Positions 7,212-57,919 of a stretch of 64,000 bases of DNA are shown here, in pieces. Origin of the DNA: Candidatus Jacksonbacteria bacterium RIFOXYB2_FULL_44_15 (GTDB lineage: Bacteria > Patescibacteriota > Patescibacteriia > UBA9629). Positions within the stretch are counted from its first letter, which is position 1; the number at the start of each line of letters is the position of its first letter. Location: NCBI GenBank assembly GCA_001818235.1, contig MHJY01000010.1, forward strand, positions 17,609 through 81,608. The letters are read 5' to 3'. Both the position numbers and the translations under genes were made by a program. Under the pieces are notes generated by a model. That model did not search any database. It saw only the letters and a program-made list of their open reading frames with translations, and was not told the origin of the DNA.

Positions 7212-7910
7212 ATGGAAAAAGATTTATCGCCACTCGAAAATAAACTTCGGGTTAGATTTAATAACCATAACTTTTTAAGACAATCCCTAGTTCATAAATC
7301 CTACATCAACGAAAATCCGTCCTTTACTCTCGACCACAACGAACGACTGGAATTTTTGGGTGACGCGGTCCTAGAGCTAATCGTTACCGAATACTTGTTT
7401 AAGCATTATCCGCGAACGCCGGAAGGGGAAATGACTAATTGGCGCGCCGCGCTCGTCAACTCGACTATGCTGGCGCAACTGGCCGAAGAGTTTAATCTTT
7501 ATAAATATCTTTATCTTAGCAAAGGCGAAAAAAAAGACCAAAACCCCAAAGCAAAGCAATATATTTTAGCCAATGCTTTCGAAGCGCTGATTGGCGCCCT
7601 CTACCTGGACCAAGGGCTCGATACTGCCAAAGATTTTATTATCAAAAATATCGTTTCAAAATTAGCGAACATTCTTAAAAACAAACTGTATCTTGACCCC
7701 AAAACTCGTTTTCAAGAAAGCGCTCAAGAACAAGAAACCGTTACCCCAACCTATAAAGTCTTAAAAGAGGAAGGCCCAGATCATGCCAAAACATTCACTA
7801 TCGGCGTGTATTTAAAAGACGAATTAGTGGCTATAGGACAAGGGCTATCCAAACAAGAAGCCCAAGTCGAAGCCGCCTTAAAAGCTCTCCAAGTAAAAAA
7901 ATGGGAATAA
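7212..7910 (+). CDS. rnc: Ribonuclease III
   Basis: ERLEFLGDAVLEL catalytic signature plus a C-terminal dsRBD (TFTIGVYLKDELVAIGQGLSKQEAQ). Confidence 0.9.
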   Translation: MEKDLSPLENKLRVRFNNHNFLRQSLVHKSYINENPSFTLDHNERLEFLGDAVLELIVTEYLFKHYPRTPEGEMTNWRAALVNSTMLAQLAEEFNLYKYLYLSKGEKKDQNPKAKQYILANAFEALIGALYLDQGLDTAKDFIIKNIVSKLANILKNKLYLDPKTRFQESAQEQETVTPTYKVLKEEGPDHAKTFTIGVYLKDELVAIGQGLSKQEAQVEAALKALQVKKWE

Positions 7911-19290: not shown

Positions 19291-20781
19291 TTAAGCAATG
19301 CCCAAAACTTGGCGCACCACTGCCCGATCATCCCATGGCACCAAACATTCCCTCACTGCCATCACCTCTTCACAACCCTTGCCGGTTAAAACAATCACCT
19401 CTTTCGGTTTGGCCAAGGCAACCGCTTTTTCGATCGCCTTGCGCCGGTCTAAAATTTTCCAATAGTTTTGATTTATCTGACGATTCAAATCACTTTTGAC
19501 GCCCACTTCCACTTGGTTCATGATTTCCGCTGGGTCATCATCATAAGGATCCTCGTTAGTGATAATTACATATTTGGCATACTTCGCCGCCAAGCTCCCT
19601 AATTTCGGCCGCTTAGCTTTATCCCGGCCGCCACCGACTGCCCCTAGTACGGCAATGATTGATGAGTGCGGTTCTGGATGTTTGCCCGAACTAGGCCGAG
19701 CTTCGGGTGAGCAAAGCGAACCCCGACTGAGCGAAGCGAAGGAGTTTGAGGCCAGTGAGGGTAAATATCCAGAACCACGCACCGATAAAATCGTTTCGTA
19801 TACCTTCTCCAAAGCCGCCGGATCATGGGCGTAATCAACTATAACTGTTATATCGCGCTTAGAATCATAAATCACCTCCATTCGACCAGGCACTCCAACC
19901 ATTTTTTCCAAGGCCTGCTGGATTATTTTGATTTCAACTCCCTGCAATAACCCGACCGCGATTGCCGCTAAACAATTATAAATATTAAACTCGCCCAACA
20001 AATTTGTTTTAAAATGATATTTTTGATTCTCATACTCCAAATCAAATTCTGACCCTTGCGCCAGCAACTTACAGTCCGTCGCTATAATTTTTTTGAAATT
20101 TGATATTTGATTTTTGAAATTTTTTTCGGATTTCGGATTTCGGATTTCGGATTTTACCCCGTATCCCCACTTCTCATCCGCCTCAAACTTAACGAAGTAT
20201 TCCGCCTGCTCATCATCCAGATTCACGACGCTGACCTTTTTAGCGTCATTGCGAGGAGCAAAGTGACGAAGCAATCTTGAGTATAATTCTTGACCTTTGA
20301 GCGCCGCAAATAACCGCCCTTTTGCCTCTTTGTATTTTTCGAAAGACCCGTGGGATTCGATATGCTCTGGGGTGAGATTTGTAAAAACAACTGTTTGATA
20401 ATTTATGCCCCAATGGCGGTATTGTTTAATGCCTTCAGAAGTTGTTTCGATCACCGCGTACTGACAGCCAGCTTTGACCATTTCTCTCAGCAACTTTTGC
20501 AACCGAAACCGGCCTTGCATACCTTGTTTTGTGCGGTTGATCCATGATTTATCAGCAATTTTAAAATTGATTGAGGTAGTTAAACCAACCTTGTTGCCGG
20601 CCTCAGTCAAAATTTCCCAAATAAGGTTACAAGTCGTTGTCTTGCCGTTAGTACCGGTCACGCCGATTACTTTTAGCCGCCGGCTCGGAAAACCATAAAA
20701 TACATTCGCCAACACAGCCAAGGTTTTATGATAAAGCAAGATGATTGATTCGGGAACAAATTTTCGAAGTAATTTTTTCAT
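19291..20781 (-). CDS. murE: Mur ligase family protein (MurE-like UDP-MurNAc-tripeptide synthetase) carrying two in-frame repetitive insertions
   Basis: P-loop VIGVTGTNGKTTT, DYAHDP, GGGRDKAKRP and a C-terminal NEDPYDDDP motif. The start is moved to the ATG at 20781 because the ATG at 20808 lies inside the upstream repeat. Confidence 0.75.
   Translation of the reverse strand: MKKLLRKFVPESIILLYHKTLAVLANVFYGFPSRRLKVIGVTGTNGKTTTCNLIWEILTEAGNKVGLTTSINFKIADKSWINRTKQGMQGRFRLQKLLREMVKAGCQYAVIETTSEGIKQYRHWGINYQTVVFTNLTPEHIESHGSFEKYKEAKGRLFAALKGQELYSRLLRHFAPRNDAKKVSVVNLDDEQAEYFVKFEADEKWGYGVKSEIRNPKSEKNFKNQISNFKKIIATDCKLLAQGSEFDLEYENQKYHFKTNLLGEFNIYNCLAAIAVGLLQGVEIKIIQQALEKMVGVPGRMEVIYDSKRDITVIVDYAHDPAALEKVYETILSVRGSGYLPSLASNSFASLSRGSLCSPEARPSSGKHPEPHSSIIAVLGAVGGGRDKAKRPKLGSLAAKYAKYVIITNEDPYDDDPAEIMNQVEVGVKSDLNRQINQNYWKILDRRKAIEKAVALAKPKEVIVLTGKGCEEVMAVRECLVPWDDRAVVRQVLGIA
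19666..19782. mobile_element. 117-bp MITE-like element with 14-16 bp terminal inverted repeats, inserted in-frame in the Mur ligase gene (family B)
   Basis: Left TIR gtgcggttctggat (19666-19679) and right TIR atccagaaccacgcac (19767-19782). 117 = 39 codons with no stop. It encodes RGSGYLPSLASNSFASLSRGSLCSPEARPSSGKHPEPHS just before the conserved GGxRD motif. Confidence 0.6.
20095..20160. repeat. Tandem heptamer (cggattt x4) plus gaaattt-type repeats, in-frame inside the Mur ligase gene
   Basis: Encodes the low-complexity segment SEIRNPKSEKNFKNQISNFKK between conserved Mur ligase blocks. Confidence 0.6.
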
Positions 20782-20805
20782 GAACAGAACCTGCCCGAAA
20801 TTTGT

Positions 20806-20830
20806 CATTCCGAGCTTGTCGAGGAATCGC
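20806..20830 (-). repeat. Family-A motif copy between the FISUMP gene stop and the Mur ligase start
   Basis: On the minus strand it reads GATTCCTCGACAAGCTCGGAATGAC, 22 nt 5' of the Mur ligase ATG. Confidence 0.6.
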
Positions 20831-39307: not shown

Positions 39308-39706
39308 TTACTTTTTTTTGGCAAATTTTGCTAACAATATTTCGGTATCTTGCTCCCGAACAAAACGTTTTAGTATCAAAAAACTGATTAAAATGCCTGC
39401 TACGTCAACCAACCAATCATGCCAATTGCCGTCACGCCCGGAAATAAAACTTTGATGATACTCATCGGTTGCGGCATATAAAGCGGCTAAAATCATTGCC
39501 AACGGTAATACGGATTGTTTCTTTTTTCCAATAACCTTAACCAATAGCCAAGTTAAAATTCCGTATTCAACCATATGCGCCCCCTTGCGCAATATTAAAT
39601 CAACCCAATCTATAAGACCGGAGCGCAAATTCGGTTGATTCGATAAATAAAAAATAATTCCCATCCACAATAACAAGAGCAACGAATCTAAAAATCTTTT
39701 TAGCAT
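39308..39706 (-). CDS. VanZ-family membrane protein
   Basis: Four transmembrane helices with KGAHMVEYGILTWLL, typical of VanZ. Confidence 0.7.
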   Translation of the reverse strand: MLKRFLDSLLLLLWMGIIFYLSNQPNLRSGLIDWVDLILRKGAHMVEYGILTWLLVKVIGKKKQSVLPLAMILAALYAATDEYHQSFISGRDGNWHDWLVDVAGILISFLILKRFVREQDTEILLAKFAKKK

Positions 39707-39751
39707 AAAATTTGTATCAGAAAAAATTTAATGATATTATTATAAATAACC

Positions 39752-39847
39752 GAACAAGTATTTTTTGCTTGCCTCAAACTCCCTTCGGTCGGGGTTCGGC
39801 TATGGCCTCACCCTAAGCTCGGCTTCGCAAAAAAAACTTGTTCGGTC
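39752..39847. repeat. Family-B element: about 96 bp bounded by a 10-bp inverted repeat (ccgaacaagt / acttgttcgg); internal core related to the Mur ligase gene insertion
   Basis: Shares the gtcggggttcg...tcaccc...aagctcggc core with the reverse complement of 19680-19765. Confidence 0.5.
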
Positions 39848-39876
39848 ATCATAATTGCCTAACACGATTTAGTCAA

Positions 39877-40449
39877 ATGTATCAGTTTTACCGGTTACTG
39901 TCTTGGTTTTTTCATCCGATAATCACGCTGGCCTTAATGCTTTTTTTGGCCATCGTATTTTCTTTTACTGAAGGCCAACCGTTAATTCTCTGGTTAGGAG
40001 TCGGGTTTGGAATGATTTATGGCATTCCTGGAGTCTATTATTTTATTTTACTCTATCAAAAAAAAATCGACGTCGACGTAAAAAATTTAATTCAGCGCGA
40101 AAATTTGTTTAAAATCAGCATAATTACGCTAGCCGCCGTTTTTGTTTTGACAATCATTTTTACGGAGGCCGAAATTCTCCAAAAAATGCTGTTGGCGGCA
40201 ACCGCAATCAATCTGTTATTCATCATCTTTCTCAATCTGTTCAAGATGGAGTTGAGCATTCATATTTCGGCATTAACAGTATTAATAATTTTTTTAATTT
40301 ATTATGTAGCCGACTACTACTTAATCGGACTGCTACCGCTAATCTTAACCGCCATTTCTCGTTATAAATTACATAAACACACTGTAGCGGAATTGATTGG
40401 AGGATTTTTATCAAGCGCGATTATTTACATCTGCATCTTATTGCTGTAA
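39877..40449 (+). CDS. Hypothetical polytopic membrane protein
   Basis: Five or six hydrophobic helices and no recognisable motif. Start moved to the first ATG; the TTG start in the ORF track lies inside the repeat. Confidence 0.45.
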   Translation: MYQFYRLLSWFFHPIITLALMLFLAIVFSFTEGQPLILWLGVGFGMIYGIPGVYYFILLYQKKIDVDVKNLIQRENLFKISIITLAAVFVLTIIFTEAEILQKMLLAATAINLLFIIFLNLFKMELSIHISALTVLIIFLIYYVADYYLIGLLPLILTAISRYKLHKHTVAELIGGFLSSAIIYICILLL

Positions 40450-57307: not shown

Positions 57308-57919
57308 TTACTTTTTAAGCACTATCATCCTCATTTTTTGCCCAAATTTTAATCTTTCTGCCGGATCGTCAAATGCGATTTCACTTGGTTCAAATTCTGC
57401 TGGATCAAAATCCTCATCTCCAACCCAGTCGACAACGTCCGCATATTCAGGATGTTTGGGATTTTTGAGAATATCTAATTTGTCATAGTATCCCCAAATG
57501 CCGCCGCTGTCTTCAAACGGACAAGCCATTTTACCGGCAATACAAACTGGGTATTTATTATTTTTAACTTTTAGCACTATTTTTTCTAAAATTACCAAGT
57601 GCTCCCAATTATCGCCGAAGTCGTAAGTATAGTTCATCTTTCCCAACTTTGGGAACCAACCTTTGATTTTTTCTTTCCAGCCAGCTAAAACTTCGGTCCA
57701 GTCATCATCAGTCGGGATGCCGATGTGTAGCTCTTTTCCTCTCGGACCTATGGTAGTAAATTCGTGCAAATGACTATCGCCCCAACCCATCGCTTCTTGA
57801 ATGGCCACGTGCAAGTCCCAGAAACTATAATTTTCCGGCACCTGAATTCTTCGCCAGATAGGCGGCTTGCAATCTTTCAGAGTGATCTTAAACTGATAAA
57901 TATTTTTATAATTTTTCAT
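57308..57919 (-). CDS. pRiA4b ORF-3-like (PRiA4_ORF3 family) protein
   Basis: IYQFKITLKDCKPPIWRRIQVP...FWDLHVAIQEAMGWGDSHLHEF...YDFGDNWEH signature blocks. Confidence 0.65.
   Translation of the reverse strand: MKNYKNIYQFKITLKDCKPPIWRRIQVPENYSFWDLHVAIQEAMGWGDSHLHEFTTIGPRGKELHIGIPTDDDWTEVLAGWKEKIKGWFPKLGKMNYTYDFGDNWEHLVILEKIVLKVKNNKYPVCIAGKMACPFEDSGGIWGYYDKLDILKNPKHPEYADVVDWVGDEDFDPAEFEPSEIAFDDPAERLKFGQKMRMIVLKK

What the first reader, a model, noticed from the sequence alone, without database searches (positions are those of the whole stretch)
19666..19782. 117-bp inverted-repeat element inserted in-frame in an essential Mur ligase gene
Within the MurE-like gene, a 117-bp segment is bounded by 14-16 bp near-perfect inverted repeats (gtgcggttctggat ... 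atccagaaccacgcac). It is exactly 39 codons long with no stop and lands between the conserved DYAHDP block and the GGxRD motif. It encodes a Ser/Pro-rich 39-aa insert absent from canonical MurE. Its internal core (gtcggggttcg...tcaccc...aagctcggc) recurs in the intergenic element at 39752-39847, so it is a copy of a dispersed repeat rather than ancestral protein sequence. An in-frame MITE-like element in a cell-wall synthesis gene is unusual. Either the enzyme tolerates a surface loop insertion (a mobile-element-derived mini-domain), the gene is decaying, or the element is removed at the RNA or protein level.
Basis: seen in the sequence. Interest (0 to 1): 0.7.

Follow-up and report, generated by a model that had tools for sequence, protein, structure and literature searches.

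The report
Palindromic mobile repeat inside murE gene
A 117-bp hairpin-forming repeat sits in frame inside the cell-wall gene murE of a Jacksonbacteria (CPR) genome, where it most likely adds a floppy 39-residue surface loop. Sister copies sit in frame in three other housekeeping genes of related bacteria, which resembles the known 'Rickettsia palindromic elements' in a phylum where I found no such report.

Summary
Window 19666-19782 is a 117-bp (39-codon, stop-free) palindromic insert in a MurE-family ligase gene (minus strand), and a second copy lies in the intergenic region at 39750-39845. The gene is intact, under purifying selection, and identical in at least 8 independent assemblies. Most orthologues lack the 39 residues. 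AlphaFold2 models them as a disordered loop between a helix and the strand that carries GGGRD. The element belongs to a small family found in Jacksonbacteria-like Patescibacteria. I found 11 distinct copies: in frame and in either orientation in murE, pth, der and a capD-like gene, plus intergenic copies. The best reading is an RPE-like selfish palindromic element that is translated and survives only in permissive loops. It is not a classical MITE: there is no target-site duplication, and the terminal arms differ between copies. The ~60-nt core is almost invariant, and the arms co-vary to keep pairing. Between orthologous genes the core is far more conserved than the host's synonymous sites. 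One strand, antisense to murE, always folds better. These features leave open a nucleic-acid-level function or a structure-recognising mobility mechanism. Verdict: a real feature and a new member of a known kind, of moderate interest.

The parts
19291..20808 (-). Host gene: a MurE-family Mur ligase. The longest ORF is 505 aa. The NCBI start is MKKLL at 20781, giving 496 aa.
   Evidence: 100% identity to the Cand. Jacksonbacteria protein P0001; Pfam; TIGR01085, 357 bits against a cut-off of 257.
19666..19782 (+). Element copy 1, 117 bp = 39 codons of murE. The strand given is the better-folding 'F' strand, which is antisense to the murE mRNA.
   Evidence: 103.8 bits; -63.1 kcal/mol and z -8.9 on the + strand; -48.1 and z -5.0 on the - strand.
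19666..19692 (.). One arm of the closing stem of copy 1 (pairs with 19754-19782).
19693..19754 (.). Conserved core of copy 1. On the mRNA strand it reads GCCTCAAACTCC..GTCGGGGTTCG..CTCACCCGAAGCTCGGC.
   Evidence: invariant columns; 89% nt identity to the L001 copy; third-codon identity 0.8-0.93.
19754..19782 (.). Other arm of the closing stem of copy 1.
39750..39845 (-). Element copy 2 (AT-rich-stem subtype), intergenic between divergently oriented ORFs 39308-39706 (-) and 39838-40449 (+). The F strand is the minus strand.
   Evidence: (93.3 bits).
20239..20289 (-). A second, unrelated in-frame insert in the same murE gene (ELYSRLLRHFAPRNDAK). It carries the motif GTCATTGCGAGGAGCAAAGTGACGAAGCAATCT and is absent from the L001 orthologue.

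Best explanation
The 117-bp segment is a copy of a small, non-autonomous palindromic repeat family. The family is about 96-125 bp long, has a GC-rich ~60-nt core and is closed by a 15-25-bp stem. It is carried by Jacksonbacteria-like Patescibacteria. Copies spread by a mechanism that is still unknown and that leaves no visible target-site duplication. In these gene-dense genomes many copies land in genes. Only copies that add a whole number of codons, have no stop in the host frame, and fall in a permissive surface loop survive purifying selection. In murE the element is transcribed and translated with the gene. It adds about 39 disordered residues in the helix-to-strand loop at the start of the C-terminal domain, at the N-terminal end of the strand whose C-terminal end carries GGGRD. 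By the topology of such folds this is away from the ligand site, so the enzyme should still work.

Shown: the family exists, its copies are in frame, the gene is intact, and the insert is modelled as a loop.

Inferred: mobility, translation of the insert, and retained enzyme activity.
For: Family and insertion:
- There are 11 distinct copies. All score 44-118 bits with one covariance model.
- Copies sit in frame in murE (window, L001), pth (L003, L017, L016), der (L016) and a Polysacc_synt_2/capD-like gene (L014). They use three different element reading frames and both orientations.
- Intergenic copies occur in the window, L007, L012 and L004.
- The der copy is absent from the L003 der orthologue, while the same L016 contig also carries the pth copy.
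- Most MurE orthologues lack the insert.
- P0002, which has it, groups with P0003 and P0004, which lack it. Bootstrap support for window+P0002 is 0/300.
- A different ~119-bp palindrome occupies the same MurE loop in L002.

Tolerance:
- AlphaFold2 gives pLDDT 88.7 and pTM 0.90. The insert is coil with pLDDT below 50, between helix 321-336 and strand 375-382.
- MurE 4bub has 4 residues where the query has 40.
- The pth insert likewise has no counterpart in Pth 7y52.

Gene alive:
- Outside the insert, nucleotide identity by codon position is 0.73/0.89/0.41.
- All invariant Mur-ligase columns are present.
- The sequence is identical in at least 8 assemblies.

Precedent:
- RPEs are 105-146 bp stem-loops, in frame in 19 genes, and the RPE-bearing gmk is translated and active (PMC2229807; PMC10969869).
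Against: - No target-site duplication is visible, and I saw no transposase among the 55 window ORFs (checked by eye only).
- No near-identical filled/empty pair was found, so the insertion boundaries are undefined.
- The terminal arms differ between copies while the core is nearly invariant. This is the reverse of a transposase-mobilised MITE.
- The family is rare. There are 2 copies in 64 kb, 1 hit in 185,579 species genomes for one pattern, and only pth and der in an exhaustive profile search of 1.84 billion proteins.
- Between orthologous genes the element is far more conserved than the host's synonymous sites. For pth L003 vs L016 the insert is 0.89/0.94/0.91 by codon position against 0.74/0.79/0.45 for the flanks. 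The murE core has third positions at 0.8-0.93 against 0.13-0.4 right beside it. Decaying junk would not show this.
- Neither translation nor enzyme activity has been measured.
Confidence: 0.7

Rival explanations
1. The element is a functional structured nucleic acid, either RNA or single-stranded DNA of one polarity (the 'F' strand, antisense to murE). It would be maintained by selection for the host or for its own structure-recognising mobility machinery. It would sit in reading frames only because these genomes have little non-coding space. The conserved core would be the recognition or active part, and the co-varying stem a structural requirement.
For: - The core is nearly invariant, while all 13 pairs of the closing helix show changes on both sides. 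94% of cells are paired against 23-53% when partners are slid, and 0 of 500 shuffles reach the observed score.
- Nucleotide conservation is flat across codon positions and far above the host's synonymous sites. It is confined to the ~60-nt core with sharp edges.
- The F strand folds better in 11 of 11 copies. Its consensus is 30 pairs at -25.2 kcal/mol, against 18 pairs at -14.5 kcal/mol for the other strand. Three invariant G.U pairs form only on the F strand.
- Outer-stem mismatches are A.C on the other strand (that is, G.U on F) 5 times and the reverse 0 times.
- Subtypes differ by added hairpins at loops: GGCC-ATA-GCC in copy 2 and CTCCGACA..TGTCGGAG in L014.
Against: - No Rfam family matches. 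The best hit has E = 8.6.
- The F strand is on the host mRNA strand in about 5 contexts and opposite it in 3, so a cis role in the host transcript is unlikely. The two window copies have opposite polarity.
- The inner helices never vary, so they give no covariation evidence.
- Copies were found with exact core patterns, which inflates the apparent invariance of the core.
- Independent recent insertions from a conserved source would also explain the high similarity. The patchy murE phylogeny and the second palindrome in the same loop fit that reading.
- The 5:0 asymmetry gives only p of about 0.06.
Confidence: 0.2
2. The insert is removed before the protein functions. It would be an intron-like or bypassed segment (self-splicing, endonuclease plus ligase, or ribosomal hopping), or a protein-level splice.
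For: - The arms form a long stem that brings the two junctions together.
- CPR bacteria are known, from general knowledge, for unusual insertions in rRNA genes.
Against: - There is no group I/II intron, ribozyme or other Rfam match.
- 117 nt is far too short for a known self-splicing intron or an intein.
- The stem is a near-continuous helix without the two 3-nt bulges of a bulge-helix-bulge splice motif.
- All four host genes keep the element stop-free and in a whole number of codons. That is needed only if it is translated.
- There is no stop codon after a take-off codon, as bypassing would require.
Confidence: 0.05
3. murE is a decaying pseudogene, or the segment is ordinary lineage-specific protein sequence that only happens to look palindromic.
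For: - The insert has no homologue in canonical MurE.
- The gene also carries a second insert.
Against: - The reading frame is intact in at least 8 assemblies.
- The codon-position pattern shows purifying selection.
- All invariant columns of 94 homologues are present.
- The same DNA occurs in unrelated genes, read in other frames and on the other strand, and also in intergenic DNA. This rules out protein-level ancestry.
Confidence: 0.03

Closest known systems
Rickettsia palindromic elements (RPE; Ogata et al. 2000, as reviewed in PMC2229807 and PMC10969869)
   Same: - Both are roughly 100-150-bp repeats that fold into long stem-loops.
- Both are found in intergenic DNA and fused in frame into conserved housekeeping genes.
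- In both, the inserted peptide lies where it is compatible with the protein fold.
- Both occur in small, reduced genomes.
- The mobility mechanism is unknown for both, and target-site duplication is uncertain.
   Different: - The host phylum is different: Patescibacteria/CPR rather than Alphaproteobacteria.
- Sequence relationship to RPEs was not tested here.
- The family is far rarer: 2 copies per 64 kb and a handful of host genes.
- The terminal arms differ between copies and co-vary, while the core is nearly invariant.
- The element is more conserved than host synonymous sites between orthologues.
Correia/NEMIS elements of Neisseria, 107-bp and 155-bp species (PMC2229807)
   Same: - There are two subtypes. 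One has open frames and is found fused in genes. The other has stops in all frames and is essentially intergenic. This matches the GC-stem genic copies and the AT-stem intergenic copies here.
- Transcripts form long hairpins that could be RNase III substrates. The window encodes an RNase III-like ORF at 7212-7910 (identified by eye only).
   Different: Correia elements have conserved 24-bp terminal inverted repeats, TA ends and target-site duplications. None of these is seen here.
Classical bacterial MITEs mobilised by DDE transposases (ERIC, RUP, YPAL and others; PMC2229807)
   Same: Both are small, non-coding, repeated, form a stem-loop through pairing of the 5' and 3' ends, and are occasionally intragenic with open frames.
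   Different: - There is no TSD and no TA ends.
- The core is GC-rich rather than A+T-rich.
- The terminal repeats are not shared between copies.
- No parent IS with matching ends was found in the window.
REP/BIME elements and their RAYT (HUH) transposases; IS200/IS605-type single-strand transposition
   Same: - Recognition would be by hairpin structure rather than by terminal sequence.
- There are no target-site duplications.
- One strand is favoured.
- A 25-nt unit, GTYGGGGTTCGC..GCTCACCCCAA, equal to the apex of this element, is repeated REP-like in unrelated GC-rich contigs L006, L010 and L011.
   Different: - REPs are 20-40 nt, extragenic, carry a conserved 5' tetranucleotide and accompany a RAYT gene. 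The element here is about 100-125 nt, is often intragenic, and no HUH gene was found.
- The two window copies have opposite polarity.
PARCEL palindromic amphipathic repeat coding elements (PMC2996958; title and abstract only)
   Same: Both are palindromic DNA that remains coding and is distributed among small-genome microbes.
   Different: By its title and abstract, PARCELs are an intragenic repeat coding sequence in surface-type repeat proteins. They are not single hairpin inserts in housekeeping enzymes.

Membership tests
RPE-like in-frame palindromic repeat (functional class) | Repeated element of about 100-150 bp that folds as a long stem-loop. | tested here: met
   There are 11 copies of 96-125 bp. 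MFE ranges from -36 to -67 kcal/mol, with z-scores from -3.9 to -8.9 for the two window copies.
RPE-like in-frame palindromic repeat (functional class) | Copies fused in frame into several unrelated conserved protein genes as well as lying in intergenic DNA. | tested here: met
   Genic copies are in murE, pth, der and a capD-like gene. Intergenic copies are in the window, L007, L012 and L004.
RPE-like in-frame palindromic repeat (functional class) | Insert lies in a surface or loop position compatible with the host fold. | tested here: met
   AlphaFold2 models it as coil with pLDDT below 50, between a helix and a strand. PDB sequence alignments of MurE and Pth skip the insert. Surface exposure in 3-D coordinates was not measured.
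RPE-like in-frame palindromic repeat (functional class) | Insert is translated and the host protein remains active (shown for Rickettsia gmk). | not testable with these tools
   This needs a proteome or transcriptome, or an enzyme assay. The indirect evidence is that the frame is intact and the gene is under purifying selection.
Rickettsia RPE families proper (RPE-1 to RPE-10) | Sequence homology to an RPE consensus, and occurrence in Rickettsia. | not tested
   No RPE consensus was compared. The host is Cand. Jacksonbacteria, so membership by descent is not expected.
Classical MITE | Terminal inverted repeats conserved across the family and shared with a parent IS. | tested here: not met
   Each copy has its own arms. 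All 13 closing-helix pairs vary on both sides. blastn and the covariance model find no IS with these ends in the window.
Classical MITE | Target-site duplication flanking the element. | tested here: inconclusive
   No direct repeats are seen at the edges of the 11 copies. The exact boundaries are unknown because no close empty site was found.
REP/BIME | Extragenic palindrome of 20-40 nt with a conserved 5' tetranucleotide and an associated RAYT gene. | tested here: not met
   The length is about 100-125 nt and roughly half the copies are intragenic. No RAYT-like ORF was noticed, but this was checked by eye only.
Self-splicing intron, ribozyme or other described RNA family | Match to a curated covariance model. 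| tested here: not met
   At gathering thresholds Rfam finds only 2 tRNAs in the window. A permissive scan of 19600-19850 gives only an E = 8.6 hit.
MurE (host gene) | Score above the curated cut-off of TIGR01085, plus Mur_ligase_M and Mur_ligase_C domains. | tested here: met
   The score is 357.1 bits against a cut-off of 257.3. The match comes in two stretches that break at residue 332, and the profile starts at position 63, so the N-terminal domain is short.

The most novel reading that the evidence does not exclude
The element is not inert selfish DNA. It is a structured nucleic-acid module of one polarity, with a ~60-nt core under strong nucleotide-level purifying selection and a closing stem kept only by compensatory change. 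It lives inside the reading frames of essential genes. On this reading it would be one of two things. It could be a new kind of mobile element recognised by shape and core rather than by its ends, for example through a single-stranded intermediate. Or it could be a host-used RNA or DNA signal that the proteins have had to accommodate.
Probability: 0.2. Interest if true: 0.75.

Novelty: new member of a known kind. Interest (0 to 1): 0.45.

Why it matters
This shows that in-frame colonisation of essential genes by palindromic repeats, so far described mainly in Rickettsia, also occurs in the ultra-small genomes of the Candidate Phyla Radiation. It explains some of the odd 'extra loops' and 'hypothetical protein' labels on CPR housekeeping enzymes; the window's MurE is named hypothetical in several records. 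It warns annotators and structure predictors that such segments are repeat-derived. It identifies one MurE loop that accepts about 40 foreign residues in three lineages. The conserved-core, co-varying-stem, strand-asymmetric pattern gives a concrete and testable handle on how such elements move or what they do. That question remains unanswered even for RPEs.

Tried and rejected
- **Viral contigs.** Two core patterns found nothing.
- **Genome and metagenome scans.** One pattern each was allowed. They gave 1 and 12 loci. Three loci (L006, L010, L011) are GC-rich organisms that share only a 25-nt unit, so I set them aside.
- **Peptide search.** I searched all element frames concatenated. Only 6 proteins scored E <= 10, and the capD-like host was missed. 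Short-peptide searches therefore under-detect.
- **Exhaustive profile search of the pth/der-frame peptide.** This returned only pth and der, plus a spurious fibronectin-III repeat protein.
- **Search for a close, empty-site der orthologue to define boundaries and TSD.** The best hit is 56% identical, so this failed.
- **Empty murE sites.** P0003 (L018) and P0004 (L019) are too diverged in the loop.
- **Recent lateral transfer of a gene segment carrying the insert.** Rejected, because third-codon identity directly next to the insert is 0.13-0.4.
- **Orthologous context for the intergenic copies.** None was found.
- **Terminator role for copy 2.** Rejected. It lies between divergent genes, and the scan reported no terminator at the element itself.
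- **Bulge-helix-bulge intron, ribosomal bypass and intein.** All were considered and rejected on anatomy.
- **Second der insert in L016 (KGAPAKRGNNLAKGGSRAGRG).** It is not clearly palindromic and I did not pursue it.
- **First phylogeny script.** It timed out and was redone.
Full report
**Observation.** The window is 42% GC. It matches Candidatus Jacksonbacteria bacterium RIFOXYC2_FULL_44_29 (CPR/Patescibacteria), with MurE 100% identical to P0001. The minus-strand ORF 19291-20808 is a MurE-family ligase. It scores 357 bits on TIGR01085 against a cut-off of 257, and it has Pfam Mur_ligase_M and Mur_ligase_C domains. Both matches are broken into two stretches at one point. At that point lies the 117-bp segment 19666-19782, which is 39 whole codons with no stop. 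It falls between DYAHDP and GGGRD.

The ends of the segment are reverse complements, and the pairing extends inward to 23-nt arms. The segment folds far better than shuffled versions, with z = -5.0 on the mRNA strand and -8.9 on the other strand. A second copy lies at 39750-39845 in the opposite orientation, between divergent genes. A covariance model built from the family finds exactly these two copies in the 64 kb. The identical insert is present in proteins from at least 8 NCBI accessions and 26 contigs, so it is neither an assembly error nor a frameshift.

**It is an insertion, not MurE sequence.** Orthologues P0003-P0012 lack the 39 residues, and typical homologues are 434-450 aa. Alignment to solved MurE (4bub) leaves query residues 334-373 opposite only four residues of the structure. 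An AlphaFold2 model built on 94 homologues is confident overall (pLDDT 88.7, pTM 0.90). It shows the insert as coil with pLDDT below 50, between helix 321-336 and strand 375-382. This is the helix-to-strand loop at the N-terminal end of the strand whose C-terminal end carries GGGRD. From the topology of such folds I infer that it is away from the ligand site.

The gene is alive. Every column that is invariant in 94 homologues is present. Against the L001 orthologue, the gene outside the insert shows the classic purifying-selection pattern of nucleotide identity by codon position, 0.73/0.89/0.41.

**It belongs to a dispersed family.** Pattern scans of public genomes and metagenomes, plus a peptide search, recovered 11 distinct copies:
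- murE in the window and in L001 (P0002);
- peptidyl-tRNA hydrolase (pth) in L003, L017 and L016;
- the GTPase Der in L016;
- a Polysacc_synt_2/CapD-like dehydratase in L014;
- intergenic copies in the window, L007, L012 and L004.

In pth, der and the capD-like gene the element is read on the opposite strand from murE, in two different frames. No common peptide is therefore involved. In Pth, too, the insert has no counterpart in a solved structure.

Genic copies have GC-rich arms and open frames. Intergenic copies have AT-rich arms with stops. This recalls the 107-bp and 155-bp Correia species (PMC2229807).

The hosts whose close relatives carry names are Jacksonbacteria-like. An exhaustive profile search of 1.84 billion proteins with the pth/der-frame peptide found only pth and der. 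The family is therefore small and phylogenetically narrow.

**Best explanation.** This is the behaviour described for Rickettsia palindromic elements. Those are 105-146-bp stem-loop repeats found in intergenic DNA and fused in frame into many conserved genes. One RPE-bearing enzyme (gmk) has been shown to be translated and active (PMC2229807; PMC10969869). I conclude, with confidence about 0.7, that the murE segment is a selfish, non-autonomous palindromic element. It is transcribed and translated with the gene and tolerated as a disordered surface loop. Selection removes any copy that breaks the frame or hits a structured region.

Two results support this 'permissive loop filter'. First, a different ~119-bp palindrome occupies the same MurE loop in another Patescibacteria lineage (L002). 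Second, the window's murE also carries an unrelated 17-residue in-frame insert elsewhere.

The der copy is present in L016 but absent from the L003 orthologue. This indicates gain or loss within this group.

**Where it departs from a MITE, and what remains unexplained.** Four features do not fit a classical MITE.
- No target-site duplication is visible at any of the 11 copies. No close empty site could be found to fix the boundaries.
- The terminal arms are not conserved. All 13 pairs of the closing helix change on both sides between copies, yet 94% of cells stay paired. When partners are slid, only 23-53% pair, and 0 of 500 shuffles match the observed value. The ~60-nt core, by contrast, is almost invariant. 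Part of that invariance is by construction, because I searched with exact core patterns.
- Between orthologous host genes the element is far more conserved than the host's synonymous sites. For pth, L003 against L016, the insert is 0.89/0.94/0.91 by codon position and the flanks are 0.74/0.79/0.45. In murE, third-position identity is 0.8-0.93 in the core but 0.13-0.4 immediately beside it. This also rules out a recently transferred gene segment.
- One strand, the F strand, which is antisense to murE, folds better in all 11 copies. It has a better consensus structure with three invariant G.U pairs. It also accounts for all five transition-type mismatches in the outer stems as G.U (p about 0.06).

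Two readings fit these facts. In the first, insertions are young and independent, drawn from a conserved source family. The murE phylogeny supports this. P0002, which has the insert, groups with P0003 and P0004, which lack it, and not with the window (bootstrap 0/300 for window+P0002). That implies either two insertions into the same loop or repeated loss.

In the second reading, the core and the stem structure are under selection at the nucleic-acid level. The selection could serve a structure-recognising mobility mechanism or a host function. I give this second reading about 0.2.

A cis role in host mRNAs is unlikely, because F polarity matches host transcription in some contexts and opposes it in others. 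No Rfam family matches.

**Rejected alternatives.**
- Pseudogene: contradicted by frame integrity, conserved residues and the selection pattern.
- Ancestral protein sequence: contradicted by copies in other genes, frames, strands and intergenic DNA.
- Removal at the RNA or protein level: no intron, ribozyme or intein features are present, and the stem has no bulge-helix-bulge geometry. The requirement that every genic copy be stop-free and a whole number of codons makes sense only if it is translated.

**Verdict.** It is a new family of a known kind, an RPE-like in-frame palindromic repeat. My literature searches found no prior description in this phylum. It has an unusual architecture, a conserved core with co-varying arms, that merits follow-up with transcriptome and proteome data and a genome-wide census. 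Interest is moderate (0.45).

Noticed in passing
window 20239-20289 (minus strand, inside murE): A second lineage-specific in-frame insert, ELYSRLLRHFAPRNDAK, carries the motif GTCATTGCGAGGAGCAAAGTGACGAAGCAATCT. It is absent from the L001 orthologue and occurs once in the window. Other CPR MurE orthologues (P0006, P0010) show peptides of similar flavour (SLRGAERRSNL..DCFATLPMTK) at this or another site, which suggests a second repeat family that also lands in frames. From memory, this motif resembles a repeat seen in many bacterial genomes; I did not verify that here.
   Followed up: partly
L002 1290-1408 (MurE orthologue P0014): A different ~119-bp palindrome lies in frame in the same helix-to-strand loop as the window's element. 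Its arms are 20 nt and 80% complementary, and its MFE is -47.9 kcal/mol. It encodes ..HECGHKYREFAKISGQNPKNNLRFSTGQVREHSR...
   Followed up: partly
L006 1578-1652; L010 7180 and 8432; L011 2914-3116: GC-rich (62-67% GC) metagenome contigs from unrelated organisms carry 2-4 copies each of a 25-nt unit, GTYGGGGTTCGC..GCTCACCCCAA. This unit equals the apex of the CPR element and is arranged like REP elements. It may hint at the origin of the core, or it may be coincidence.
   Followed up: partly
window 19783-19797 and 39846-39859: Read in the same element orientation, the two window copies are followed by similar flanks: TCATCAATCATTGCC at murE and TCATCATAATTGCC at copy 2. In murE this sequence encodes host residues SSIIA. 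It could reflect a target preference or chance. The L001 copy does not share it.
   Followed up: no
window 19291-20808 and all 94 aligned homologues: These CPR MurE proteins lack most of the N-terminal domain of canonical MurE. TIGR01085 aligns from profile position 63, PDB chains align from about residue 87, and there is no Pfam Mur_ligase N-terminal domain hit.
   Followed up: no
L016 19-1257 (Der, P0123): Besides the palindromic element, this Der has another 19-residue insert, GAPAKRGNNLAKGGSRAGR, relative to the L003 orthologue. Its DNA is not clearly palindromic.
   Followed up: partly
L018 (MurE orthologue P0003), loop between VYKTL and IIAVLG: The 'empty' loop contains a small tandem duplication, CATGAAACA x3 (HETCNMKHETN). 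The loop is therefore variable even without the element.
   Followed up: no
window 47132-49291 and 57308-57919: Two ORFs look like mobile-element or plasmid-type genes. One is 719 aa and begins MTTQTITEEQLNLYQSLFRGRTDVYARYW. The other resembles PRiA4b ORF-3 and contains IYQFKITLKDCKPPIWRRIQVP. This is judged by eye only; they were not scanned against Pfam and have no evident link to the element.
   Followed up: no
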